Assembly: GCA_964605665.1 (NCBI GenBank)
Contig: CAZSDP010000022.1
Location: 11,238 to 75,237, forward strand
Direction: 5' to 3'
DNA from: an uncultured Planctomycetia bacterium
GTDB lineage: Bacteria; Planctomycetota; UBA8108; UBA1146
DNA length: 64,000 bases
In this document: in pieces, positions 11,690 to 31,712 of the stretch
Numbering within the stretch: position 1 is the first letter of the stretch
How the letters are laid out: each line of letters opens with the position of its first letter
Notes under the pieces: generated by a model
What the model saw: only the letters and a program-made list of their open reading frames with translations
Told to the model about the DNA's origin: nothing
The model's database searches: none
Translations under genes and position numbers: made by a program

Positions 11690-12414
11690 ACCCGACGCTG
11701 AATGTCTATCGCCGAGAGCTGAAGGCGTTCTTCGACACTCCCATCGCGGCGATCTTCATCGCGCTGATGGTGGGGATGCTGAGTTACTTCTTGTTCAAAG
11801 ACTCCCCCTTCTTCGCCTTCGAGCAGGCGGAAATGCGGGAGTTCTTCGGCCAGATTCCGATCGTTCTGATGGTGTTCGCTCCGGTGATCACAATGCGACT
11901 CTGGTCCGATGAATTTCGGGTGGGAACCGCAGAGATTCTCGGGTCTCTACCGATGAGATCTCTCTCCGTCGTTCTCGGTAAGTACTTCGCAGCGCTCACC
12001 GTGCTCTTCACCGCCCTGTTGTGTACGTTGGGAGTCCCGATCGCTATCGGCATGATCGGAAATCCCGACTGGGGACCGATCGTCGGCGGTTACGTCGGGA
12101 GCTTCTTGGTCGGTGCTTTCTACGTGGCCCTCGGCTGTTGGGCGAGCTCACTCTCGAGCAATCAGGTGGTCTCGATGCTGATCGGGGTCTTCGTGGGGGT
12201 TCTTTTCACCTTCGTGCTGACCCCCAAGGCCGCGGCGATGGTCTCCTCTGAAAGCGTCATCTTGGCCCGCTGGATCGAGAACCTCGGAGTGATTTCCCAC
12301 TTCAGCAGTATCGAGCGGGGGGTGATCGCCCTCAGTGATGCGATCTACTTTATCTCAGGCTCCATCTTCTTCCTGGTGCTCAATGTGCTCCAGGTCGAGT
12401 GGAAACGCTACTAG
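11686..12414 (+). CDS. ABC-2 type permease (GldF-like)
   Basis: 6-TM hydrophobic profile. Overlaps the ATPase stop by 4 nt (translational coupling). Confidence 0.8.
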   Translation: MNPTLNVYRRELKAFFDTPIAAIFIALMVGMLSYFLFKDSPFFAFEQAEMREFFGQIPIVLMVFAPVITMRLWSDEFRVGTAEILGSLPMRSLSVVLGKYFAALTVLFTALLCTLGVPIAIGMIGNPDWGPIVGGYVGSFLVGAFYVALGCWASSLSSNQVVSMLIGVFVGVLFTFVLTPKAAAMVSSESVILARWIENLGVISHFSSIERGVIALSDAIYFISGSIFFLVLNVLQVEWKRY

Positions 12415-12427
12415 GGGGGAGGGATCG

Positions 12428-14392
12428 ATGCAGAGTCAATCATTTGTCGCCCGTTGGTCTCTATTCCTGGTCTTGTTGGTCGGGGTGTTGGTCTTCATCA
12501 ACTTGCTTTCCGCCCGATTCGATCGGCGGATCGATCTGACCGAAGCAAAACTTCACACGATCTCGCCGGAGACCCAGCGGCTCCTCGCAGACATCGAAGA
12601 TCAGGTGACGATCACCTACTACGCATCCGATGCGGACAGCATGCCCTCCGGCTTCCAGAACTTCCGTCGGGATACCGTCGATTTCCTGCGGGAGTACGAG
12701 CGGGCCGCAGATGGCCCCGTTCAGATCAAGGTGATCAATCCGCAAGACATCATCGATGAGTATGTCGAAGCGAAGCGAGAGGAAGAGCGGGCGAAGCGAG
12801 AAGCGGAGCGTCAGGAAGCGGAGGAAAAGAAGAAGGAAGGCGCGGCGGACGAGAATGCCGATGGGTCCGATTCCGCATCGGAAGATTCTGATTCCGGGGC
12901 TGAATCAGAGTCGGTAGCCGAGGACAGCACCCTCTTGGCGGATGAAGACGCGCGCAATGCGATCCGTTGGGCAGAAGAGATCAAACAGGAGCTGGCGGGG
13001 AGAAACATCCCGGAACTTCGGGGGCGATCTGTTGAGCGCGATCAGTTCTCTCTGACCAACTTCTACTCTTCGATCGAGATTCAATACCTCGACCGGCCAG
13101 TGGAGATGATTCGGCTCCATCAAAGTCTGGAGGGGCTGGAATTCGAGCTCACCAGTCGGATCGCAAAGCTCACGGTGCAGTCGAAGCCGAAGATCGCGGT
13201 CTTCCTCGGGAAGCCCGATGACATCATGCAACTGCCCCCCAACCCAAATCTCCCGCCCGGTCAACCTCCGGAGACGATGAGTGTCTATCAGCCCTTCATC
13301 CGCGATGTGTTGATGGAACAATTCGATGTCGTGGTGATCGAGCTCACCGAAAGTTCTCCGATCCCGGAGGATGCGCAGGTGTTGATCGTGGCGCAGCCCG
13401 ACCAGCTGACGCAACGACAGCTCTATGAGATCGACCGTTCCGTTGTTCGGGGGCGACCCACCTTGATTCTCGCTTCGCATACCTCGGGTGGACTCGACGA
13501 CCCAGCGCTACCGATCTCACCTCTCATACCCGGGCTCGACCCTCTCTTCGAGAAGTGGGGGCTCTCCTTCGGTCGCGACATGATCAGCTCGCTGCAGTGT
13601 GGGTTCATCGAGATCGTGCGAAATGTGGGAATCACGATGCGTCAACGAGTTCCGCTGCCCCTCTGTCCCCAGGTTCAGGGGCGCGGCTTGAACCAAGAGA
13701 GTCCGCTGACTCAGGGACTCTCCGCCTTGGTTTTCCCCTTCTCCTCAGAGATCAGACCGAATCCTCTCGTCCTCGAGAACAACGGGATGGTCCTCACCCC
13801 ACTGGCAACCACCGCGGTCAACTCCTGGCTTTCTCCCTTCCGCCCGCAGTTGCAGCGGGGGATGGTCGATCCACCCGGCACCCCGAGCGCTCGCAGTGAA
13901 TTCATCGTGGGGGCACTCCTCGAAGGAGAGTTTCCTTCGGCGTTCACCGCTGGGGATCCCCTTCCCAGCTGGGACGCTGATGCGGGAACGAGCGTCGAGG
14001 GAGAAGACGGTGAGACGCCGACGGTAGAGGTGATTCCCGAAGCGAATCGAAGTCCGGGGCGGGTGATCCTCCTCGGCTCCGCAGATATCGGGAAGTACGC
14101 GTCACTCTTTCTGTACCGAGACGCGACGAGCAACTTACCCTTCCTCTTGGGTTGTGTCGAAGCGCTCGCGCTCGGGCAAGACCTCCTCAAGATTCGCGCC
14201 AAGAAGCAGATTCCGCGGCCACTGGTGGTGACCACCGCGTCCCAACGCTGGTGGACCTCGTACGGGAATATCCTGGTGATTCCGTTGTGCATCCTCTTCC
14301 TGGCCTTGTTCCGCAACAGCTTGCGGCGAGCGGCATCTCGACGCTACGAGATCCGTTACGAGCGAGAGGAGGCTTCGCGCCATGCCCAGTAA
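12428..14392 (+). CDS. GldG-like ABC-transporter auxiliary protein with an acidic/Lys-rich insert
   Basis: N-terminal TM plus ...TEAKLHTISPETQRLLADIEDQVTITYYAS... typical of the Gldg family. C-terminal TM. Preceded by an ABC ATPase and permease. Confidence 0.75.
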   Translation: MQSQSFVARWSLFLVLLVGVLVFINLLSARFDRRIDLTEAKLHTISPETQRLLADIEDQVTITYYASDADSMPSGFQNFRRDTVDFLREYERAADGPVQIKVINPQDIIDEYVEAKREEERAKREAERQEAEEKKKEGAADENADGSDSASEDSDSGAESESVAEDSTLLADEDARNAIRWAEEIKQELAGRNIPELRGRSVERDQFSLTNFYSSIEIQYLDRPVEMIRLHQSLEGLEFELTSRIAKLTVQSKPKIAVFLGKPDDIMQLPPNPNLPPGQPPETMSVYQPFIRDVLMEQFDVVVIELTESSPIPEDAQVLIVAQPDQLTQRQLYEIDRSVVRGRPTLILASHTSGGLDDPALPISPLIPGLDPLFEKWGLSFGRDMISSLQCGFIEIVRNVGITMRQRVPLPLCPQVQGRGLNQESPLTQGLSALVFPFSSEIRPNPLVLENNGMVLTPLATTAVNSWLSPFRPQLQRGMVDPPGTPSARSEFIVGALLEGEFPSAFTAGDPLPSWDADAGTSVEGEDGETPTVEVIPEANRSPGRVILLGSADIGKYASLFLYRDATSNLPFLLGCVEALALGQDLLKIRAKKQIPRPLVVTTASQRWWTSYGNILVIPLCILFLALFRNSLRRAASRRYEIRYEREEASRHAQ

Positions 14393-15434
14393 TCGATCGA
14401 TCAATCTTCTCGCCCTCTTGTTGGTGGTCTTCGGTCTCACCTATCTTCTGACCAGTGATCCGAAGGTGGCGGGTCGGGAGCCTCCTCCCGATGCGATTTC
14501 ACGACTGGAGACGGTCGATGCCTCTACTGTGAACGCGATCGAGATCTCCCAAGGAGGTGACTCTGTCTCCATCGAGCGCGATGGGGATGGTTGGGTGGCG
14601 ACCTCTCGCTTTGGAGTTGCCGCCGATCCGGTCAAAGTGAGCACCTTGATCGATCTGATCTTGCTGATTTCGTCGGGTCAGAAGCGCGCTTCCAGCGATG
14701 CGGCGCATCGATCGTTCGAAGTCGACGCAGAGAAAGGCTATCGCATTCAGTTGCGAGGAGAGGGAGAGGGACTTCCGATCGATGTCACCATCGGAAAAGT
14801 CGATGGATTCGACCGGGTCTACGTGAGATTCGATGACGGAGCCGACGTCTATTCGGTCCTTCCAAACCTCCGATATGGAGCGGGGCTTTCGCCGAAATTT
14901 CTCATCGATGATTGGCTCGATCGGATCGTATTGGCGATCCCCGAAGAGGCTGAGATCGCCTCCTTTCGCTTCGAAACCGAAGATCGATCGATCCTCCTCG
15001 AGCATCTCGAAACAGAGACGAAGACTCCTGACGGAGAATCGGCGACCACCGTCAACTGGACCGTCACCGAACCGGAAACCTTCGAAGCGGATCCCGCCAT
15101 CGTGCGTGGTCTGGTGAGCAACGTTCAGCAGGTGCGGGCGAACACGGTGGTCGATCCCGCCAAGGTTTCTGAGACCGGTCTCGAGTCGCCGACCGGCCTT
15201 CTGACGATTTCACTGAAGAATGGTGAGACGAAGGTGCTCGAGTTCGGTGGTGAAGGAGAGATCGTAGGGGGGCAGAAGGTGACCTACGGTCGTCTCCGTG
15301 GAGATCCGCGGATCTTTGGGTTGCCGATTTGGACCGCGACCAACTTGTTGAAGACGGTCGATCAGCTGCGCCCCGCGCCTCCTGAACCGGTCGATCCACC
15401 GCAGGAGGCGACACCTGCTCCACCAGGAGGGTGA
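14382..15434 (+). CDS. DUF4340-like protein (frequent partner of GldG)
   Basis: N-terminal TM. Repeated beta-rich modules. Overlaps the gldG-like stop. Conserved neighbourhood (established knowledge). Confidence 0.6.
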   Translation: MPSNRSINLLALLLVVFGLTYLLTSDPKVAGREPPPDAISRLETVDASTVNAIEISQGGDSVSIERDGDGWVATSRFGVAADPVKVSTLIDLILLISSGQKRASSDAAHRSFEVDAEKGYRIQLRGEGEGLPIDVTIGKVDGFDRVYVRFDDGADVYSVLPNLRYGAGLSPKFLIDDWLDRIVLAIPEEAEIASFRFETEDRSILLEHLETETKTPDGESATTVNWTVTEPETFEADPAIVRGLVSNVQQVRANTVVDPAKVSETGLESPTGLLTISLKNGETKVLEFGGEGEIVGGQKVTYGRLRGDPRIFGLPIWTATNLLKTVDQLRPAPPEPVDPPQEATPAPPGG

Positions 15435-20219: not shown

Positions 20220-20798
20220 TCACCGATCGGTGAGGCGGACGCCGGTCGCCATGAAGCTGACGAGCACTTTCGGTGCATCGATCGAGTTTGGATCTTCGGT
20301 GCCGGACTCTGCCGCATAGTGCCGCTGTTCCTCGACCGAAACCGTTTGGCGACGGACGTTCCCTTCGATCCACGCGATCTTTCCTTCGCAGTCCTTCGGC
20401 AGGAAGAATGCGTAGTCCGCAAATTTGACTCTGGCTTCACTCTGACCGTCAGTCACCTTGATCCAGCACCCTTTTGCTTTGCAGACATCGATCACCTCCG
20501 CGCGGACCAGAATCGGCCGATCGGAGTAGGTCTCCGGTGCATCGATGACCAACGCGAAGTCGTCGAGGGCTTTTCGGGTCACGCCGGCGCCGAAGTCATC
20601 TCCGGTTGGAATCGAGGTGGAGCCACGAAGCTGGTGCTCCGCGCCAGATCTGCTCTCCGCGAGTGATCGGTCGGGACGGGAGCTCGGTCGAGAGGTGGGG
20701 TTTTCGGCTCGCTCGGTAGAGGAACCGCACCCGAGAAGAGCCGCGAGGGAGACGAAGCAGAGGAATCGGATCGTGGTGGACAACATCGAAGACTCCAT
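20220..20798 (-). CDS. DUF4920-like lipoprotein
   Basis: Lipobox LLGCGS. Conserved ...CKAKGCWIKV... motif. Confidence 0.65.
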   Translation of the reverse strand: MESSMLSTTIRFLCFVSLAALLGCGSSTERAENPTSRPSSRPDRSLAESRSGAEHQLRGSTSIPTGDDFGAGVTRKALDDFALVIDAPETYSDRPILVRAEVIDVCKAKGCWIKVTDGQSEARVKFADYAFFLPKDCEGKIAWIEGNVRRQTVSVEEQRHYAAESGTEDPNSIDAPKVLVSFMATGVRLTDR

Positions 20799-21039: not shown

Positions 21040-22578
21040 ATGGCTGCCAAAGAACCGGGAACGACTGATCTTCCTCCCGCAGTGCTCGACCTGGTGGAGG
21101 AACTCCGGCGTTCGAGTTTGATTGGATCTGCGTTGGCTCTCCTCGGTTGGGACCAAGAGACGCAACTCCCCCCCGGCGGAGCCGCCAGTCGAGCCGAGGT
21201 GATGGGGGCGTTGACCGAGGTCTATCACAACCGTGCGACCTCCGATCGACTGGGAGAGAAGATCGACTTGGCGGCAGCGGAGATCGCCGGAGAGGACGGC
21301 CCTCTTTCCGCCTTGGTGCGGGAAGCGACGCGAGACTGGCGGCGCAGTCGCTGTGTGCCGACCGAGCTCGCCCAGGAAGTGGCGGTGCAAGCTTCGAAGT
21401 CGGTGATGGCTTGGCGATCGGCGCGGCAGCAGGATGACTTCGCAGGGTACCGTCCGCAGCTCGAACGGATGGTCGACCTCAAGTGTCAGGTGGCGGATGC
21501 CATCGGCCGCGATTTCGGAAGCACCCGCTACGACACCCTCCTCGATGAGTACGAACCAGGGATGACGGGGGCGCAGTTTCAAGGGTACATCGATGTCGTC
21601 AAGCCGCGCCTGGTCCAGCTCGTCGCGGATGCGACTCCTCGCTGTGCACGAATGGACGTCCAGTTCTTGAGCGCCGGCTACGACCGCGATCAGCAGTTGG
21701 AATTCTCGCGAGAGGTCCTTTCAGCGATGGGATACGACTTCGACCGTGGTCGACTCGATCTCACCGCCCACCCCTTCTGCACCGGGATCGCCGCCCCCTT
21801 CGATGTGCGGATCACCACCCGTGTCGACGATGACGATTTCACCGGCAATTTCTTCAGCGTGATTCATGAAGGGGGCCATGCGCTCTACGAGCAGGGCCTC
21901 GATCCGGCTTGGGCTGGGACTCCCCTCGGGAGCGCGACTTCGCTGGGGATTCACGAGTCACAGTCGCGACTGTGGGAGAACGTGATCAGCCGCAGCGACG
22001 AATTCTGGACCCACTGGTTGCCCCGTTTCCGAGCGGCTTTCCCCGGACGTTGCGATTCGGTCTCTCACACCGACTTCGTCGCCGCCGTCAATCGGGTGGT
22101 TCCATCTCTGATCCGCACCGAAGCGGACGAAGTGACCTATAGCTTGCACGTGATGCTCCGTTTCGAATTGGAACACGGCCTGATCGAAGGAAAGATCAAC
22201 GTCGAGGATCTTCCCGAGTTGTGGCGAACGCAGATGCAGGAACTTCTCGGCGTGGTCCCTGAAAACGATGCCGACGGGGTTCTTCAAGACATCCACTGGG
22301 CGATGGGCGCCTTTGGTTACTTCCCGACTTACTTCCTCGGGAATCTCTATGGCGCACAGATCGATCGTCAGGCGCGGAAAGAACTTCCCGACCTCGACGA
22401 GCAGCTCGCGCGCGGGGAGATGATTCCTCTGCGAGAGTGGCTCGGCGAGAAGGTCCATATGCAGGGGCGGCGCTATCAGTCTCTCGACCTGATTCGCGAG
22501 ATCTGTGGCGAAGATCTCGACCCCACTTTGTTCGTCGATTACCTCGAAGACAAAGTGACGAGGTTCTTTCCCGATTGA
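21040..22578 (+). CDS. M32 carboxypeptidase (Taq-type metallocarboxypeptidase)
   Basis: HEGGHALYEQG zinc motif, DVRITTR and HPF motifs. 512 aa. Confidence 0.9.
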   Translation: MAAKEPGTTDLPPAVLDLVEELRRSSLIGSALALLGWDQETQLPPGGAASRAEVMGALTEVYHNRATSDRLGEKIDLAAAEIAGEDGPLSALVREATRDWRRSRCVPTELAQEVAVQASKSVMAWRSARQQDDFAGYRPQLERMVDLKCQVADAIGRDFGSTRYDTLLDEYEPGMTGAQFQGYIDVVKPRLVQLVADATPRCARMDVQFLSAGYDRDQQLEFSREVLSAMGYDFDRGRLDLTAHPFCTGIAAPFDVRITTRVDDDDFTGNFFSVIHEGGHALYEQGLDPAWAGTPLGSATSLGIHESQSRLWENVISRSDEFWTHWLPRFRAAFPGRCDSVSHTDFVAAVNRVVPSLIRTEADEVTYSLHVMLRFELEHGLIEGKINVEDLPELWRTQMQELLGVVPENDADGVLQDIHWAMGAFGYFPTYFLGNLYGAQIDRQARKELPDLDEQLARGEMIPLREWLGEKVHMQGRRYQSLDLIREICGEDLDPTLFVDYLEDKVTRFFPD

Positions 22579-22599
22579 CGAAAGGGAGAGATCCCACCG

Positions 22600-24951
22600 A
22601 TGGGTAAGCGTGGTCGAGAAGACGATGGAGCGGGAGAAGGGACTCGGTCTCCGATTCGCCCTCGTGGTCTTGAGGCGATACCGCTGATCGGTCGCTATAC
22701 CCGTTGGCTCCATACCCGTTGGCCGGCGGGGAAGGTCGAGAAGCTCCCGGAAGTTCGGGAAGATGGCTCGACCCGATTGCCGGGACTCTATGTCGTCGGC
22801 GATCTGACCGGTGTTCCCCTTTTGAAGCTCTCCGCTGAGAGCGGAACGAAGGCGGTGCGCACCATCGTCGAGCGCGGCATCCCATCCGCGTCCGGCGATA
22901 CCGAAATTCTCGATTTGGCCATCGTCGGGGGGGGAGTCTCAGGACACGCGGCCGCCATCGAGGCGAACCGACAGCAGCTGAACTATCGTCTCTACGAAGC
23001 GGCGGAACCGTTCTCGACGATCGTGAACTTCCCGCGGGGAAAACCGATCTATACCTATCCCACCGATCTGACTCCTGCCGGAGATCTGCAGTTTCATGAG
23101 AAGTCGGTGGTGAAGGAGGGACTCCTCGAGGATCTGCGCGAGCAGGCGGAAGCGGCGGGCGTTGTCGCGACACCGGCCCGGGTGGAACAGGTCAGAAGGA
23201 GAGCGGGGCTCCTCGAGCTCACCCTCGAGGGGGCAGGGGGAGAGCAGGTGGTCCGCGCCAGGCGGGTGATCGTCGCGATCGGGCGCTCAGGCAATCATCG
23301 CAAATTGGGGGTGCCGGGGGAGGACCGTCCCCACGTCTACAACCGACTACATGATCCCGCCGAGTTTGTTCACCAGAAAGCGCTCGTGGTCGGTGGGGGG
23401 GACAGCGCTTGTGAAACCGCCGTCGCTCTCTGCGACGCCGGGGCGGACGTGACGTTGAGCTATCGGGGAGAGACGCTCGCTCGACCGAAGGCTGAGAATG
23501 CCGAGATGGTCGCGTCGCGGGTGGCCCAGGGAAAGCTAGGGCTGCGTCTCGGTACCGAAGTGCAATCGATCGAAGAGGGAGTGGTCACGCTGCGAAGCGC
23601 CGACCGAGCGACAGAGCAGATTTCCAATGACGTGGTCTTCTCGATGATCGGTCGCGAGGCTCCCCTCGATTTCTTCCGCCGCTCTGGAGTACCGATCCGC
23701 GGCGAGTGGAGCGCCAAGAGCACCCTCACCCTCATCGTCGCATTGGCGATCTTCACCGTGGTCTATCACTGGAAGAAGACCGGCGTTTGGATCCCGATCG
23801 GGGACGCGTTCGCAGAAAATCGTTGGTTCCCCTACAACCTACCGCAGTGGTGGGAGGGGCTCGGTGAGAGCTTCAGCGATCGCTCCTCGATTCTCGGTAC
23901 CTTGAAGGTCACCATCGGTGAACCAGGCTTTTGGTACTCGCTGGTCTACACTCTGGCGATCTTGATCTTTGGCGTCAGGCGGATTCGACGTCGAAAGACC
24001 GCCTACGTCACCCGCCAGACTTGGACCCTCTTCGCGATCCAAGCGATTCCTCTCTTTTTACTGCCGTACATCGTGCTCCCATACCTGGGAAATCAGGGGG
24101 TGTTCGACAGCGGCTTTGCCCAGAGATGCGCCGATGAGTTCTTCCCCGAGGCGAACTATGGACATGGCCGAGAGTATTGGCGCGCGTTTGGATTCATCCT
24201 CGCTTGGCCGCTCTTCTTTTGGAATGTCTTCACCTCGCAACCGATGTGGGGTTGGCTCGTGGTGAGCTTCCTTCAGACCTTCGTGCTGATCCCGCTGTTG
24301 ATCCGTCGTTACGGCAAAGGAGTCTACTGCGGTTGGATCTGTTCCTGCGGAGCCTTGGCGGAAACGGTGGGGGACGCCCACCGCAGCAAGATGCCCCATG
24401 GACCAGCTTGGAATCGGCTCAATATGATCGGGCAGCTGTTTTTGCTCTTCGCCACGATTTTGTTGGTGACGCGCATCGGTTCGTGGATCTGGCCCAATTC
24501 CGGGCTCGGCGAAATCTATCGAGTGGTCCTCGATCGGAACGGTCTACCGGGATTGAACTACGTGTGGTTCGTCGACCTCTTGTGGGCGGGGATTCTCGGG
24601 GTCGGTCTCTATTGGCACTTCTCAGGCCGGGTTTGGTGTCGCTTCGCCTGTCCTCTCGCTGCACTGATGCATATCTATACTCGGTTCAGCCAGTTCGCGA
24701 TCGTTTCGGAAAAGAAGAAGTGCATCTCCTGCAACGTCTGCACTTCGGTCTGCCATCAAGGGATCGACGTCATGGCTTTTGCGAATCGTGGGCTTCCGAT
24801 GCAGGATCCTGAATGTGTCCGCTGCTCTGCTTGTGTCGGCTCTTGTCCCACCGGAGTGCTCACCTTCGGAAGAGTCGATGGGGAAGGGATGACGGTATCT
24901 CTCGATCGGGTTTCTGCATCGGCGGTCCAGGCCGGTGAAGGTGGAAGGTAG
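22600..24951 (+). CDS. Fusion protein: FAD/NAD(P)-binding pyridine-nucleotide-disulfide-oxidoreductase-like domain plus NapH/MauN-like membrane polyferredoxin
   Basis: IVGGGVSGHAAA and LVVGGGDSACETA (two Rossmann motifs) and LYVVGDLTGVP (FAD motif), then TM helices with CGWICSCG and CRFACPLAA motifs, then two 4Fe-4S motifs CISCNVCTSVC and CVRCSACVGSCP. Confidence 0.8.
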   Translation: MGKRGREDDGAGEGTRSPIRPRGLEAIPLIGRYTRWLHTRWPAGKVEKLPEVREDGSTRLPGLYVVGDLTGVPLLKLSAESGTKAVRTIVERGIPSASGDTEILDLAIVGGGVSGHAAAIEANRQQLNYRLYEAAEPFSTIVNFPRGKPIYTYPTDLTPAGDLQFHEKSVVKEGLLEDLREQAEAAGVVATPARVEQVRRRAGLLELTLEGAGGEQVVRARRVIVAIGRSGNHRKLGVPGEDRPHVYNRLHDPAEFVHQKALVVGGGDSACETAVALCDAGADVTLSYRGETLARPKAENAEMVASRVAQGKLGLRLGTEVQSIEEGVVTLRSADRATEQISNDVVFSMIGREAPLDFFRRSGVPIRGEWSAKSTLTLIVALAIFTVVYHWKKTGVWIPIGDAFAENRWFPYNLPQWWEGLGESFSDRSSILGTLKVTIGEPGFWYSLVYTLAILIFGVRRIRRRKTAYVTRQTWTLFAIQAIPLFLLPYIVLPYLGNQGVFDSGFAQRCADEFFPEANYGHGREYWRAFGFILAWPLFFWNVFTSQPMWGWLVVSFLQTFVLIPLLIRRYGKGVYCGWICSCGALAETVGDAHRSKMPHGPAWNRLNMIGQLFLLFATILLVTRIGSWIWPNSGLGEIYRVVLDRNGLPGLNYVWFVDLLWAGILGVGLYWHFSGRVWCRFACPLAALMHIYTRFSQFAIVSEKKKCISCNVCTSVCHQGIDVMAFANRGLPMQDPECVRCSACVGSCPTGVLTFGRVDGEGMTVSLDRVSASAVQAGEGGR

Positions 24952-24957
24952 GCGAAA

Positions 24958-25767
24958 TTGCTGCAGTCACCCCCGACGACCGCGATCATCATCGCTGCAT
25001 ATCAGCAAGCGGAGTCACTACGACTTCTCTTGGCGGCATTGTCCGCAGCACCGCAGACCGACTTCGAGGTCTATGTCGCCGACGATGGCTCATCGCCTTC
25101 GATGGAGGAGCTCCTCGCACGCGAGGTGGCGGAGTCACCCTTTCCGGTGACCTTTCATTGGCAGCCCGATGCGGGGTTTCGCAAGGCTTCGATCCTCAAT
25201 GCCACCGTCTCACCGCTCACCGCCGAATTACTGGTTTTTCTCGACGGCGACTGCATCCCCCATCGTGATCTCATCGAGGTCTACCGTCAGGCATTTCAGC
25301 CACGGGAGTTCTTCGTCGGCAGTGTCGGTTTTCTCGAGGTGAATCGGAGCCGCGCGCTCGACTCTCACTCGGTGGCGGCGGGCGCACATGAGGGAACGAT
25401 CGGGTTCAAACAGGAGTGGAAGATCCGGATGACCCACTGGAAGAACCAACTCTACCGCGGTCGGAAGAGAGTCCGTCCGCGGATCCGAGGGGGGAACTTC
25501 GCCATCTGTTCGCAACTCTATCGGCTGGTCGATGGATTCGACGAAGTCTATGAAGGACACGGGAAAGAAGACTCCGATCTGCGCAATCGACTCCGCAATA
25601 GCGGGGCGAAAGGACTGAGCCTTTGGAACCGAGCGCGGGCGGTCCATCTCTCACGCGAGGTGGCACCGAGTGGTGAGCGCGCGCCGACGCCGATCTCGCT
25701 CTATGAAGAGGGGCGGCAGTTGATCAAGGCGAGGCGGGGACTCAGCGCTCACTCAGAAGGCGATTGA
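24958..25767 (+). CDS. Family 2 glycosyltransferase
   Basis: AIIIAAYQQAESL...YVADDGS...FLDGDCIP (DXD). Confidence 0.8.
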   Translation: MLQSPPTTAIIIAAYQQAESLRLLLAALSAAPQTDFEVYVADDGSSPSMEELLAREVAESPFPVTFHWQPDAGFRKASILNATVSPLTAELLVFLDGDCIPHRDLIEVYRQAFQPREFFVGSVGFLEVNRSRALDSHSVAAGAHEGTIGFKQEWKIRMTHWKNQLYRGRKRVRPRIRGGNFAICSQLYRLVDGFDEVYEGHGKEDSDLRNRLRNSGAKGLSLWNRARAVHLSREVAPSGERAPTPISLYEEGRQLIKARRGLSAHSEGD

Positions 25768-30272: not shown

Positions 30273-30719
30273 GTTCCCGTTTCCTTCCTGGGATTGAATC
30301 GTGAAACCCCAATCAAGACCCTTCGAATGAAGGGTCTCCGGACCGATGGGGAGACTAACAAGTCTTGATGGATTTAATACAAGCCCCCTAGGCACCCTCC
30401 GCCAGGGGACGTATTGTCCAGATTTATGTTAATTGTATCGGCAGTTGAAAATGCGTCCACCCGGCGCTGCAAAACTCCGTGATTTCCCTCGGTAGAGACT
30501 CTTCCTAAGTCCGATCGAGCAGAATTAACTGCTCCATATTTCAAGAGTTGGGGAAATCGGGGTGGCAACTGCCGTTGTGTCTCTTCTCCAAGGGTGATAT
30601 TCGTGGCACTGGCCGAGAAGAGCGTCAGGGCGCGACCGATGGAGGTCCTCGGCCACGTTCTTGGCCTTTACAACGGTGGAGTTCTGCCCCCTTCCGGGGG
30701 GGAAGGAGCGAGGTTTCTC

Positions 30720-31712
30720 ATGGTGATCGATCGAGATCGAAGCGGTACCGACGCCGCGACCCCCCGCGTCCCCTTTGAACGCGCGGTTGGGGGGGCTCTG
30801 CGCCGCTCCCCCCTCGAGATCGTTCAGATCAACCTGGGAAAGCTCTGCAATCAGACCTGCGTCCACTGCCATGTGAATGCCGGTCCCAACCGGACCGAGC
30901 AGATGAGCGCGGAAACGGCGGAGATGGCGGTGGAGCTCTTCAACCGCTTTCCCGCGGTTCACACCGTCGATCTCACCGGGGGAGCTCCCGAGATGAGCCC
31001 CCACTTTCGTCGCTTGGTGACGGAAGCGCGCTCACGCGGCCTCACCGTGATCGATCGCTGCAATCTGACGATTCTCGAGGAGCCTGGATATGAAGATCTC
31101 GCCGATTTCCTCGCGGAATCGTCGGTTCACGTGGTGGCGAGCCTTCCCTGCTATCTCGAAGAGAATGTCGATGCCCAGCGAGGGGATCAGGTTTTTACGC
31201 GCAGCATCGCCGCGCTGAAAAGACTCAACGGCCTCGGTTATGGCGGTGGGGAGGGGCTCGAGCTCTCCCTCGTCTTCAATCCGGTCGGGGCGGTGTTGCC
31301 CCCCGACCAGGCTCAATTGGAGCGCGATTACAAAGACCAGCTTCGCGATCGATACGGCATCGAGTTTGACCGTTTGTATACGATTACAAATATGGTGATC
31401 TCTCGCTTTGAGAGCTTCTTGAAAAGGACCGGGGAGTTGGAGGAGTATCAACGGCTCCTAGAGAGTTCCTTCAATCCCGCCACCCTTCCTCAGCTGATGT
31501 GCCGAAACACCCTGAGCGTCTCGTGGGATGGCTATCTGTATGACTGCGATTTCAACCAGATGCTCGATCTTCGGCTGAAGAACGGAGCTCCTCTGCGGGT
31601 CGATTCGATCACCCCGGAACTCTTCGAGACCCTTCCCATCATCACTGCGCAGCATTGCTACGGCTGCACCGCGGGCGCGGGGAGCTCCTGCCAAGGCGCA
31701 CTGGAGGAGTGA
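30720..31712 (+). CDS. Radical SAM/Cys-rich domain protein (arsenosugar ArsS-like family)
   Basis: CNQTCVHC radical-SAM motif. C-terminal WDGYLYDCDFNQML...CYGCTAGAGSSC is characteristic of the family. Start uncertain (track starts at 30594). Confidence 0.7.
   Translation: MVIDRDRSGTDAATPRVPFERAVGGALRRSPLEIVQINLGKLCNQTCVHCHVNAGPNRTEQMSAETAEMAVELFNRFPAVHTVDLTGGAPEMSPHFRRLVTEARSRGLTVIDRCNLTILEEPGYEDLADFLAESSVHVVASLPCYLEENVDAQRGDQVFTRSIAALKRLNGLGYGGGEGLELSLVFNPVGAVLPPDQAQLERDYKDQLRDRYGIEFDRLYTITNMVISRFESFLKRTGELEEYQRLLESSFNPATLPQLMCRNTLSVSWDGYLYDCDFNQMLDLRLKNGAPLRVDSITPELFETLPIITAQHCYGCTAGAGSSCQGALEE

What the first reader, a model, noticed from the sequence alone, without database searches (positions are those of the whole stretch)
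22600..24951. Unusual fusion: TrxR/YpdA-like flavin reductase joined to a NapH/MauN-type membrane polyferredoxin
The N-terminal approx. 340 aa carry two Rossmann GxGxxG motifs plus an FAD GD motif (LYVVGDLTGVP). Unusually, the GD motif lies before the first GxGxxG, suggesting a permuted order. This region is fused in one polypeptide to a multi-TM domain carrying the paired CGW(I/L)CxxG-type motifs (CGWICSCG, CRFACPLAA) and two C-terminal 4Fe-4S ferredoxin motifs (CISCNVCTSVC, CVRCSACVGSCP), as in NapH/MauN/NosR-type redox membrane proteins. Such a fusion could wire cytoplasmic NAD(P)H to a membrane or periplasmic acceptor. A GT2 and an M32 peptidase flank it, so context gives no clue to the substrate.
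Basis: partly seen in the sequence, partly recalled or inferred. Interest (0 to 1): 0.55.

Follow-up and report, generated by a model that had tools for sequence, protein, structure and literature searches.

The report
NADPH flavoprotein fused to membrane polyferredoxin
This gene encodes one protein that joins a rearranged NADPH-using flavin enzyme to a membrane iron-sulfur module, probably to carry electrons from the cell interior to the membrane or beyond; the family is widespread but has never been studied.

Summary
ORF 22600-24951 (+, 783 aa) is intact. It encodes a YpdA/TrxR-like FAD/NAD(P)H module (residues 33-371), six TM helices, two cysteine motifs and two 4Fe-4S motifs of NapH/MauN type.

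The suspected permutation is real. Moving residues 45-99 behind residue 368 extends the TrxR profile match from positions 2-244 to 2-294 of 300 (+12 bits). A shuffled control gains nothing.

The fusion is not a one-off. It is full-length in at least 582 reference species of many phyla, with 4162 protein clusters, and only generic annotation.

The flavin module has no conserved redox cysteines (YpdA Cys14 is Ser115, and there is no CxxC). FAD must therefore hand electrons to the Fe-S clusters, as in TrxR-type ferredoxin reductases. All redox motifs face the cytoplasm.

The only recurrent operon partners are exported proteins:
- DUF547, adjacent in 11 of 84 loci, or fused behind one extra TM helix.
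- A DUF6503-like protein, adjacent in 12 of 84 loci.

Neither is present in this window.

Best reading: a self-contained NAD(P)H-fed electron-input module for a NapH-type membrane device. The terminal acceptor (periplasmic partner, quinone or metal) is unresolved. I class it as a new variant of a known kind, of moderate interest.

The parts
22600..24951 (+). Complete gene, 783 aa: flavin module, six TM helices, ferredoxin domain
   Evidence: Single ORF. Full-length collinear homologs.
22696..22896 (+). Permuted N-terminal segment (residues 33-99). It holds the conserved helix WLHTRWPAG, then a beta-strand, the GD motif (LYVVGDLTGVP, 22786-22818) and a long helix. In ordinary TrxR/YpdA this is the C-terminal FAD-binding element.
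   Evidence: Transplanting residues 45-99 behind residue 368 extends the TrxR and YpdA profile matches by 11-13 bits, while a shuffled control gains nothing. PDB 2q7v rises from 45.6 to 60.4 bits. The segment is nearly invariant in the family. AF2 predicts strand 63-67 and helix 75-92.
22897..23712 (+). Core of the TrxR/YpdA-like two-Rossmann flavoprotein (residues 100-371). The FAD GxGxxG motif GGGVSG is at 22927-22944. The NAD(P)H motif GGGDSA is at 23392-23409, followed by SYRGETLARPK.
   Evidence: Pfam Pyr_redox_2/3. YpdA profile positions 1-264 of 316. Foldseek hits 7apr and 7a76 at E about 1e-18.
23713..23994 (+). Extra TM hairpin (TM1 372-392 and TM2 442-465) with conserved periplasmic loop 1. 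It tethers the flavin module to the NapH-type module. The RRIRRRK cytoplasmic cluster lies at its end.
   Evidence: Hydropathy and loop charges. AF2 helices 372-390 and 442-465.
24001..24687 (+). NapH-type membrane module (residues 468-696). It has four TM helices (468-498, 550-571, 602-630, 654-674). Cys motif 1 is CGWICSCG (24328-24351), a variant of CX3CP. Cys motif 2 is CRFACP (24637-24654), a canonical CX3CP. Periplasmic loop 2 (GHGREYWRAFGFILAWPLFFWNVF) is highly conserved.
   Evidence: TIGR02163 NapH/MauN covers model positions 42-253 of 255. Pfam Fer4_5 matches twice. C577, C581, C680, C684 and P685 are invariant even at 25-33% identity, and P0132 has a canonical CX3CP at motif 1.
24694..24879 (+). 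C-terminal 2x[4Fe-4S] ferredoxin domain (residues 699-760). The motifs are CISCNVCTSVC (24721-24753) and CVRCSACVGSCP (24814-24849).
   Evidence: Pfam Fer4_21/10/7/9. All eight Cys are invariant.
21040..22578 (+). Upstream co-directional neighbour, an M32 carboxypeptidase (22-nt gap). It is not a recurrent partner.
   Evidence: PF02074 at 3e-173. No recurrence in 84 loci.
24958..25767 (+). Downstream co-directional GT2 glycosyltransferase, starting 7 nt after the stop codon. It is probably co-transcribed, but is not the same GT2 subfamily that recurs elsewhere.
   Evidence: PF13641 and PF00535. No BLAST match to the recurrent GT2 cluster. TIGR04283 scores only 34 bits against a cut-off of 182.

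Best explanation
The gene encodes a self-contained, membrane-anchored flavo-iron-sulfur reductase.

The proposed path has four steps:

1. A cytoplasmic, circularly permuted TrxR/YpdA-type module oxidises NAD(P)H on FAD. The donor is probably NADPH, judged from the YR-x5-R motif after the second Rossmann strand.
2. This module has no redox-active cysteines. FAD therefore passes single electrons to the two [4Fe-4S] clusters of the C-terminal ferredoxin domain of the same chain, as TrxR-type ferredoxin:NADP+ reductases do with free ferredoxin.
3. The clusters feed the NapH-type four-helix membrane module. Its two cysteine motifs (five invariant or nearly invariant Cys) sit at the cytoplasmic membrane surface.
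4. From there electrons leave to an acceptor in or beyond the membrane. The most likely acceptor is an exported partner protein (DUF547 or a DUF6503-like protein in other genomes), possibly via a bound quinone.

Status of the evidence:

- Shown here: the architecture, the permutation, the conservation, the lack of redox cysteines, the topology logic and the genetic linkage to exported proteins.
- Inferred: cofactor content, the direction of electron flow, the NADPH preference and the identity of the terminal acceptor.

The permutation places the new C-terminus of the flavin fold directly at TM1. I read this as the structural solution that allowed the fusion.
For: **Architecture and motifs.**

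**Permutation.**. The TrxR profile match goes from 2-244 to 2-294 of 300 and the YpdA match from 1-261 to 1-289 of 316. The shuffled control is flat.

**No thiol chemistry in the flavin module.** YpdA Cys14 aligns to Ser115 (alignment). The only Cys in residues 100-371 (C271, C278) are not conserved.

**Structural relatives.** The nearest ones include the TrxR-type FNRs 3ab1, 2zbw and 6gar.

**Conservation.** All 13 Cys of the two motifs and two clusters are invariant in A1. All but C583 (13 of 14) remain so down to 25% identity.

**Topology.**
- There are six long helices.
- Positive charge is concentrated at 460-466.
- In three independent fusions, one additional TM helix separates the ferredoxin domain from DUF547.
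- Free DUF547 always carries a signal peptide.
- The ferredoxin domain is therefore cytoplasmic and DUF547 is outside.

**Linkage to exported proteins.**
- DUF547 is adjacent and co-directional in 11 of 84 loci from at least two phyla, with varying gene order.
- DUF547 is the top Pfam family among 120 operon-like neighbours.
- A secreted DUF6503-like protein lies 4 nt downstream in 12 of 84 loci.
- DUF547 is independently fused to a glutaredoxin-like domain in plants (PMC13621322).

**Literature.** NapH-like modules are regarded as modular transmembrane electron-transfer devices (PMC8238504).
Against: - No cofactor able to carry electrons across the bilayer is evident. All Cys motifs and clusters are cytoplasmic, and there is no conserved His pair in TM helices.
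- The exported partners are adjacent in only 23 of 84 loci, and neither is encoded in this 64-kb window.
- In one genome DUF547 lies 1.26 Mb away from the gene.
- DUF547 has no known function and no solved fold relative.
- The DUF6503-like partner has no conserved Cys or His.
- Characterised NapH is thought to work with quinol, not with a cytoplasmic donor (PMC5928378).
- Nothing here was measured biochemically.
Confidence: 0.5

Rival explanations
1. It is a single-polypeptide NAD(P)H:quinone oxidoreductase. Electrons go from NAD(P)H to FAD, then to the [4Fe-4S] clusters and the NapH-type quinone site, and simply enter the quinone pool. Exported neighbours would be incidental, or would be downstream users of quinol.
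For: - The NapH membrane segments are proposed to be the quinol/quinone-reactive domain (PMC5928378).
- All redox motifs are cytoplasmic, so no transmembrane transfer is needed.
- Most loci (61 of 84) have no conserved partner, as expected for a self-sufficient enzyme.
Against: - NDH-2-type flavoproteins reduce quinone with FAD alone, so the two clusters, five extra Cys and highly conserved periplasmic loops would be unexplained.
- This model does not explain the repeated fusion to exported DUF547 through an added TM helix.
- No quinone-binding motif was tested.
Confidence: 0.25
2. It is a CcoG-like, cytoplasm-facing metal reductase (for example Cu(II) to Cu(I)). The physiological electron donor, unknown for CcoG, would be built in as the NADPH-flavin module, and the cysteine motifs would be the metal sites.
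For: - CcoG is a membrane polyferredoxin of the same general kind. It has two [4Fe-4S] clusters and two Cu sites, it reduces Cu(II), and its donor is unknown (PMC7558416).
- Five conserved Cys lie at the membrane surface here.
Against: - No CcoG/FixG family match appears at E <= 0.001. NapH and NosR rank first.
- Pfam Fer4_18 reaches only E = 0.046, and there is no FixG_C domain.
- No copper-handling genes were found among recurrent neighbours.
- A cytoplasmic reaction does not explain the exported partners.
Confidence: 0.12
3. It runs in the reverse or redox-balancing direction. Electrons from quinol or a periplasmic oxidase enter through the NapH-type module and are delivered to NAD(P)+.
For: - NapGH has been linked to quinol oxidation, with the NapH membrane segments proposed as the quinol-oxidising domain (PMC5928378).
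- NapH-like modules are also found with oxidases (PMC8238504).
Against: - Quinol to NAD(P)+ is uphill, and no ion-translocating or bifurcating element is present.
- TrxR-type modules without thiols normally act as NADPH-dependent reductases (inference).
Confidence: 0.06
4. It is an artefact: two adjacent genes merged by a sequencing or assembly error, or a chance ORF.
For: None found.
Against: - The frame is uninterrupted.
- 4162 homologous clusters have the same full-length architecture.
- 582 reference genomes carry it.
- Members at 25-33% identity remain collinear.
Confidence: 0.01

Closest known systems
NapH / MauN family ferredoxin-type membrane proteins (TIGR02163; E. coli and Wolinella NapH)
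   Same: Four TM helices. Cys motifs directly after the 2nd and 4th helices of the module. Two C-terminal 4Fe-4S motifs. N- and C-termini of the module in the cytoplasm. It is the best curated match, covering model positions 42-253 of 255.
   Different: The score is 60-63 bits against a cut-off of 213. The first motif is CX3CSC instead of CX3CP. There are two extra N-terminal TM helices and a 370-aa flavoprotein. There is no nap operon or NapG partner nearby.
NosR / NirI and RdhC/PceC (NapH-like proteins with a periplasmic covalent-FMN domain)
   Same: They share the NapH-type membrane module with two Cys motifs. NosR also has the C-terminal polyferredoxin. They are considered devices linking membrane or cytoplasmic electrons to periplasmic enzymes (PMC5928378, PMC8238504).
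   Different: This protein has no periplasmic FMN-binding domain and no signal peptide. Its flavin is a cytoplasmic non-covalent FAD in a TrxR fold. The NosR model scores 33-37 bits against a cut-off of 1000.
YpdA / Bdr bacillithiol-disulfide reductase (PDB 7a7b, 7apr, 7a76)
   Same: It is the closest solved relative of the flavin module (E about 1e-19 by sequence, about 1e-18 by Foldseek). Both have FAD and NADPH Rossmann domains, and both lack the TrxR CxxC.
   Different: The order is circularly permuted. Cys14 of YpdA is Ser115 here. TIGR04018 scores 130 bits against a cut-off of 340. The module is fused to a membrane protein.
TrxR-type ferredoxin/flavodoxin:NADP+ oxidoreductases (PDB 3ab1, 2zbw, 6gar, 5ygq)
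   Same: They have a TrxR fold without redox-active disulfide and exchange electrons between NADPH and an Fe-S ferredoxin. This is the likely working analogy for the FAD-to-cluster step (PMC8564101, PMC9137726).
   Different: Those enzymes are soluble, have the canonical domain order, use a separate ferredoxin and carry a C-terminal extension over the flavin. Here the ferredoxin is in cis and the order is permuted.
CcoG / FixG / YccM cupric reductase family
   Same: They are membrane-anchored, cytoplasm-facing polyferredoxins with two [4Fe-4S] clusters and extra Cys sites. The electron donor of CcoG is unknown (PMC7558416).
   Different: No family-level sequence match was found. There is no FixG_C domain and no cco or copper gene context.
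DsbD/CcdA, MsrQ and NQR/RNF-like fusions (systems exporting reducing power to the periplasm)
   Same: The proposed task is the same: supplying cytoplasmic or membrane electrons to exported proteins (PMC8238504).
   Different: They are unrelated in sequence and cofactors. DsbD uses a thiol relay, MsrQ uses haem b, and the NQR/RNF-like fusion joins NqrB/RnfD to an NqrF NAD-binding domain.

Membership tests
YpdA/Bdr (TIGR04018) | Whole-protein score above the curated cut-off (339.9 bits) | tested here: not met
   129.7 bits; only profile positions 1-264 of 316 are matched.
YpdA/Bdr (TIGR04018) | Conserved Cys14 in the GGGPCG FAD motif | tested here: not met
   It aligns to GGGVSG, so Cys14 is Ser115 (alignment). 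The family shows S or A at this column.
YpdA/Bdr (TIGR04018) | Canonical order: FAD Rossmann, then NADPH Rossmann, then the C-terminal GD segment | tested here: not met
   The GD segment is N-terminal. The un-permuted construct restores the full profile match.
Low-Mr thioredoxin reductase (TIGR01292) | Redox-active CxxC in the NADPH domain | tested here: not met
   The only Cys in residues 100-371 are C271 and C278. They are not a CxxC pair and are not conserved.
Low-Mr thioredoxin reductase (TIGR01292) | Score above the cut-off (343 bits) | tested here: not met
   68 bits.
TrxR-type ferredoxin:NADP+ reductase | TrxR fold with FAD and NADPH motifs and no redox disulfide | tested here: met
TrxR-type ferredoxin:NADP+ reductase | Measured NADPH:ferredoxin electron transfer; C-terminal subdomain over the flavin | not testable with these tools
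   This needs enzymology or an experimental structure.
NapH/MauN (TIGR02163) | Four TM segments with two CX3CP motifs after the 2nd and 4th segment | tested here: inconclusive
   The TM pattern and the second motif (CRFACP) are met. The first motif is CGWICSC, with P replaced by S plus an extra Cys. One family member (P0132) has the canonical CX3CP.
NapH/MauN (TIGR02163) | Two C-terminal 4Fe-4S motifs | tested here: met
   CX2CX2CX3C occurs twice and is invariant.
NapH/MauN (TIGR02163) | Score above the subfamily cut-off (213 bits) | tested here: not met
   60.2 and 62.8 bits.
NapH/MauN (TIGR02163) | nap or mau operon context (NapG partner) | tested here: not met
   The neighbours within about 8 kb are M32, GT2, a Kdo-kinase-like protein, a B3_4 protein, RibBA, TK and DUF4920. 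No such partner appears among recurrent neighbours.
NosR/NirI (NF046105) | N-terminal periplasmic FMN-binding domain with a covalent-FMN threonine motif | tested here: not met
   There is no FMN_bind hit. The N-terminus is a hydrophilic TrxR-like domain without a signal peptide.
CcoG/FixG | Family-level sequence match and a C-terminal periplasmic Ig-like FixG_C domain | tested here: not met
   It is absent from the NCBIfam hits at E <= 0.001 and from the Pfam hits.

The most novel reading that the evidence does not exclude
The family is a third, haem-independent and thiol-relay-independent way for bacteria to export reducing power. Cytoplasmic NADPH is oxidised on a permuted TrxR-type FAD module. 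Electrons then pass through two [4Fe-4S] clusters and a Cys-ligated site of the NapH-type module across the membrane. They finally reach exported DUF547 enzymes, the same domain that plants fuse to a glutaredoxin. If true, this would assign a role to the long-enigmatic cytoplasmic clusters and CX3CP motifs of NapH, NosR and RdhC, and a first functional handle to DUF547.
Probability: 0.25. Interest if true: 0.8.

Novelty: new variant of a known kind. Interest (0 to 1): 0.55.

Why it matters
NapH-type membrane modules occur in nitrate, nitrous-oxide and organohalide respiration (NapH, NosR, PceC), and CcoG in copper handling is a related membrane polyferredoxin. What their CX3CP motifs and cytoplasmic Fe-S clusters do, and where the electrons come from, is still unsettled (PMC5928378). 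The physiological donor of CcoG is likewise unknown (PMC7558416).

This is a natural fusion that attaches an NAD(P)H-flavin module to such a device in one polypeptide. It names a plausible donor and gives a self-contained protein that can be purified and assayed.

The circular permutation of a TrxR/YpdA fold appears to be undescribed in the searchable literature. It shows how the fold was re-wired so that its chain end runs into the membrane.

The recurrent fusion with exported DUF547 gives the first testable hypothesis for that widespread domain, which also occurs in plant class IV glutaredoxins.

Tried and rejected
1. **Frameshift or merged genes.** Rejected.

2. **A DUF547 or cluster-7 gene in the window.** None was found. 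tblastn and profile searches with all filters off gave nothing. A weak tblastn hit near 59.6 kb (E = 0.09) did not survive the profile test.

3. **Window neighbours as conserved partners.** M32, the window's GT2, the Kdo-kinase-like protein and DUF4920 do not recur in the 84 loci.

4. **An arsenosugar link.**
   - The window encodes a true ArsS 5.6 kb downstream.
   - ArsS lies within 10 kb of the gene in 5 of 84 loci.
   - The recurrent GT2 is AglJ/Dpm1-like, not the arsenosugar GT TIGR04283.
   - The window GT2 is not TIGR04283 either.
   - This is kept only as a weak lead.

6. **Literature on a characterised member or a permuted TrxR-type flavoprotein.** None was found in the searchable library. 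The primary CcoG paper was not held.

7. **Membership in CcoG.** Rejected.

9. **Rfam.** No RNA family was found anywhere in the window.
Full report

Window 22600..24951 (+) is one uninterrupted 783-aa ORF. An AAGGGAG ribosome-binding-like motif lies about 12 nt upstream of the ATG.

| Motif | Residues |
|---|---|
| LYVVGDLTGVP | 63-73 |
| GGGVSG | 110-115 |
| GGGDSA | 265-270 |
| CGWICSCG | 577-584 |
| CRFACPLAA | 680-688 |
| CISCNVCTSVC | 708-718 |
| CVRCSACVGSCP | 739-750 |

Pfam finds Pyr_redox_3 and Pyr_redox_2 at 105-369 (E = 1.6e-27 and 5.4e-24). It also finds Fer4_5 twice (552-597 and a second stretch) and 4Fe-4S dicluster models at 701-756. NCBIfam ranks YpdA first for the N-terminal half (1e-37) and NapH/MauN first for the C-terminal half (2e-16; 3.5e-17 when that half is scanned alone). 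The flanks are an M32 carboxypeptidase and a GT2, as stated.

**2. One gene or two?**

The whole-database search returned 4162 protein clusters. The best 120 are all 745-830 aa with the same domain set and 54-91% identity over 96-97% of the query. The exhaustive search of 50%-identity representatives found 511 clusters at E <= 1e-30. It included full-length collinear matches down to 27-35% identity. A scan of one genome per species found the gene in at least 582 species. The phyla include Planctomycetota, Verrucomicrobiota, Acidobacteriota, Thermodesulfobacteriota, Latescibacterota, Krumholzibacteriota, Myxococcota, Elusimicrobiota and others.

The fusion is therefore a genuine, old and widespread architecture. 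It is not an assembly artefact and not a rarity. Its database names are generic: 'NAD(P)-binding domain-containing protein', 'thioredoxin reductase/polyferredoxin' and 'NosR/NirI family'. I found no paper on a characterised member.

**3. The permutation**

The YpdA and TrxR profiles match only their first ~264 and ~245 positions, at residues 105-369. The C-terminal GD-containing part of the profiles is left unmatched there.

I built an 'un-permuted' sequence, residues 100-368 followed by residues 45-99, and compared it with the core alone and with the core plus a shuffled 45-99.

| Model | Core alone | Un-permuted construct |
|---|---|---|
| TrxR TIGR01292 | 69.4 bits, positions 2-244 of 300 | 81.6 bits, positions 2-294 of 300 |
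| YpdA | 132.1 bits, positions 1-261 of 316 | 143.1 bits, positions 1-289 of 316 |
| Lipoamide dehydrogenase | 48.3 bits | 66.5 bits |

The shuffled control stayed at 68.7, 132.0 and 47.3 bits. Against the PDB, *Deinococcus* TrxR 2q7v rose from 45.6 to 60.4 bits and is now covered to residue 304 of 325.

The N-terminal segment is among the best conserved parts of the family, with consensus WLHTRWPAG..VEKLP.V..DGSTNVPGLYVVGDLTGIPLLKFSADTGARAV. It persists in the most divergent members. AF2 predicts it as a strand (63-67) plus a long helix (75-92), as for the canonical GD element, with block-mean pLDDT of 69-93.

The break point lies in the hairpin that normally links '...GV.I...G' to '.V....T..PG.FA.GD'. 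The new chain end (GVPIRGEW, residue 371) therefore runs straight into TM1. I could not inspect model coordinates, so a non-sequential structural superposition is still needed. No description of a permuted TrxR-type flavoprotein turned up in the searchable literature.

**4. What chemistry can the flavin module do?**

The best solved relatives are the Bdr/YpdA structures 7a76, 7a7b and 7apr. Next come TrxRs and the TrxR-type ferredoxin:NADP+ reductases 3ab1, 2zbw and 6gar.

The thiol chemistry of those enzymes is missing. YpdA Cys14 (GGGPCG) aligns to Ser115. There is no CxxC. The only cysteines in residues 100-371 (C271, C278) are not conserved. Electrons on FAD must therefore leave to a one-electron acceptor, as in TrxR-type FNRs, and the obvious acceptor is the ferredoxin domain in cis. 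This is an inference.

The SYR-x5-R-x-K segment after the second Rossmann strand resembles the HRRxxxR 2'-phosphate site of TrxR. NADPH is therefore the more likely donor. This is an inference from established TrxR knowledge.

**5. Membrane part and topology**

Hydropathy and the AF2 secondary structure agree on six long helices: 372-392, 442-465, 468-498, 550-571, 602-630 and 654-674. Charge is concentrated in the 460-466 RRIRRRK stretch and after TM4 and TM6. With a cytoplasmic N-terminal flavoprotein, this places the loops as follows:

- Loops 393-441, 499-549 and 631-653 are outside.
- Both Cys motifs and the ferredoxin domain are inside.

This is the topology reported for the NapH module, described as four TM segments and two CX3CP motifs shared by NapH, NosR and RdhC (PMC5928378).

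Nature supplies an independent topology reporter. In three fusion proteins (P0035, P0006, P0074) the ferredoxin domain is followed by exactly one extra TM helix, an S/P/T-rich linker and a DUF547 domain. Every free-standing DUF547 neighbour has a signal peptide or N-terminal anchor. DUF547 is therefore outside and the ferredoxin domain is inside.

The NapH-type module is TM3-TM6, and TM1-TM2 form an extra hairpin. Motif 1 is CX3CSC here, but P0132 has a canonical CX3CP at the same place. The 13 Cys of the two motifs and two clusters are invariant in A1. All but C583 (13 of 14) stay so at 25-33% identity. The periplasmic loops are also strikingly conserved, for example GHGREYWRAFG.ILAWPLF.WNVF.

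**6. Genomic context**

I examined 84 loci from other genomes in two ways: an all-against-all clustering of neighbouring ORFs, and a Pfam census of 120 tightly spaced same-strand neighbours. Most loci have no conserved partner. Two partners stand out:

- **DUF547.** It is immediately adjacent and co-directional in 11 of 84 loci (counting the fusion locus L004), upstream or downstream, in Planctomycetota and Thermodesulfobacteriota. It is also the top Pfam family in the census (10 of 120 ORFs; next are GT2 with 5, GDH with 4 and UPRTase with 3).
- **A secreted ~270-aa DUF6503-like protein.** It starts 4 nt after the stop codon in 12 of 84 loci.

Both partners are exported. Neither is in this window.

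In one complete genome DUF547 is 1.26 Mb away from the gene, so the linkage is facultative. Several further DUF547/family pairs share the same short contigs, judging from matching contig lengths.

DUF547 has an invariant C-x4-C-P and many invariant aromatic, His and Arg residues. Its model is confident (pLDDT 89.6). It has no solved relative by sequence or by Foldseek (best E = 2.9). In plants DUF547 is fused to a glutaredoxin-like domain (class IV GRX; PMC13621322). That is a second, independent fusion to a reductant-supplying module. The DUF6503-like partner has no conserved Cys or His, so it is not obviously a redox protein.

**7. Mechanism**

The part I consider well supported is this path: NAD(P)H to FAD (permuted TrxR-type module), then to two [4Fe-4S] clusters (in cis), then to the Cys-motif region of a NapH-type module at the inner face of the membrane. 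Where electrons go next is open.

- **Delivery to an exported partner.** I favour this, possibly through a bound quinone, because of the fusions and adjacency and the conserved outer loops. The weakness is that no transmembrane cofactor is evident.
- **A plain NAD(P)H:quinone reductase.** This is the most economical rival. It fits the many stand-alone loci and the proposed quinol reactivity of NapH. It leaves the clusters, the extra Cys and the exported partners unexplained.
- **A CcoG-like cytoplasmic metal reductase with a built-in donor.** This is attractive because the donor of CcoG is unknown (PMC7558416). There is, however, no family-level similarity to CcoG and no copper context.
- **Reverse flow to NAD(P)+.** This is energetically unfavourable without a coupling element.

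**8. Comparison with known families**

The protein works like a TrxR-type FNR plus ferredoxin that has been welded to a NapH/NosR-type membrane module. It is not a member of YpdA, TrxR, NapH/MauN, NosR or CcoG:

- All curated scores are far below their cut-offs.
- Defining residues are absent (Cys14, CxxC, the periplasmic FMN domain, FixG_C).
- The domain order is permuted.

NapH-like modules are already viewed as modular electron-transfer devices combined with various partners (PMC8238504). This family adds a combination not discussed there: a cytoplasmic NAD(P)H-flavin input. I class it as a new variant of a known kind.

**9. Verdict**

The protein is not unique. It belongs to a large, conserved and uncharacterised family.

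Its interest has three sources:

- It is a natural 'Rosetta-stone' fusion bearing on the unresolved electron source of NapH/NosR/CcoG-type polyferredoxins.
- It shows an apparently undescribed circular permutation of the TrxR/YpdA fold.
- It links to exported DUF547.

No biochemical claim is proven here. Interest: 0.55.

Noticed in passing
window 30594-31712 (+): This ORF is a bona fide ArsS, the arsenosugar-biosynthesis radical SAM (seleno)protein (TIGR04167, 441 bits against a cut-off of 300; Radical_SAM plus DUF3641). It lies 5.6 kb downstream of the gene. ArsS homologs lie within 10 kb of family members in 5 of 84 other loci. In three of these (L051, L052, L060) they are directly adjacent and convergent. 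Radical SAM enzymes need a low-potential reductant, so a functional link is conceivable but unproven.
   Followed up: partly
L032, L043, L044, L049 (Thermodesulfobacteriota) and L068 (Planctomycetales): A three-gene set recurs in two phyla with different gene order: exported DUF547, the flavin-polyferredoxin gene, and an AglJ/Dpm1-like GT2 of the polyprenyl-phosphate hexose transferase type (TIGR04182, 114-132 bits). The window also has a GT2 7 nt downstream, but of another subfamily.
   Followed up: partly
L001 7173-7967 and homologs (alignment A2): DUF547 gives a confident model (pLDDT 89.6). It has an invariant C-x4-C-P plus invariant N-Y-N, R-W, E-H, R-x-H-F and Y-W-x3-D-F residues. It has no solved relative by sequence or Foldseek. 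It is always exported in these bacteria, whereas plants fuse it to a glutaredoxin-like domain.
   Followed up: partly
L002, L007, L010, L013, L024, L026, L064, L071, L075: A glutamate dehydrogenase (ELFV_dehydrog) gene lies just downstream of the family gene, or after its DUF6503-like partner, in 9 loci. This may be lineage synteny or a link to NADPH supply.
   Followed up: no
P0121 (1024 aa) and alignment A1 columns 330-395: Some family members carry large insertions. P0121 has a ~180-aa helical insert inside periplasmic loop 2 and another in the flavin module. Many members have a 30-60-aa insert (consensus DP.A.V.VE.PTSERVTTA) in the NADPH domain, which the window protein lacks.
   Followed up: no
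window 20220-20798 (-): A DUF4920 lipoprotein (signal peptide with a lipobox-like LLGC) is encoded 1.8 kb upstream on the opposite strand. It does not recur near family members.
   Followed up: partly
window 12335-15434 (+): A pair of genes encodes an ABC_transp_aux/DUF7088 protein (685 aa) and a DUF4340 protein (350 aa). They overlap by 11 nt.
   Followed up: no
window 1-64000: No Rfam family reached its gathering score anywhere in the 64-kb window. Several long ORFs overlapping the gene on the opposite strand (for example 22196-23173, 24058-24399) are shadow ORFs of this G+C-rich sequence. They recur only as antisense shadows in the other loci.
   Followed up: yes
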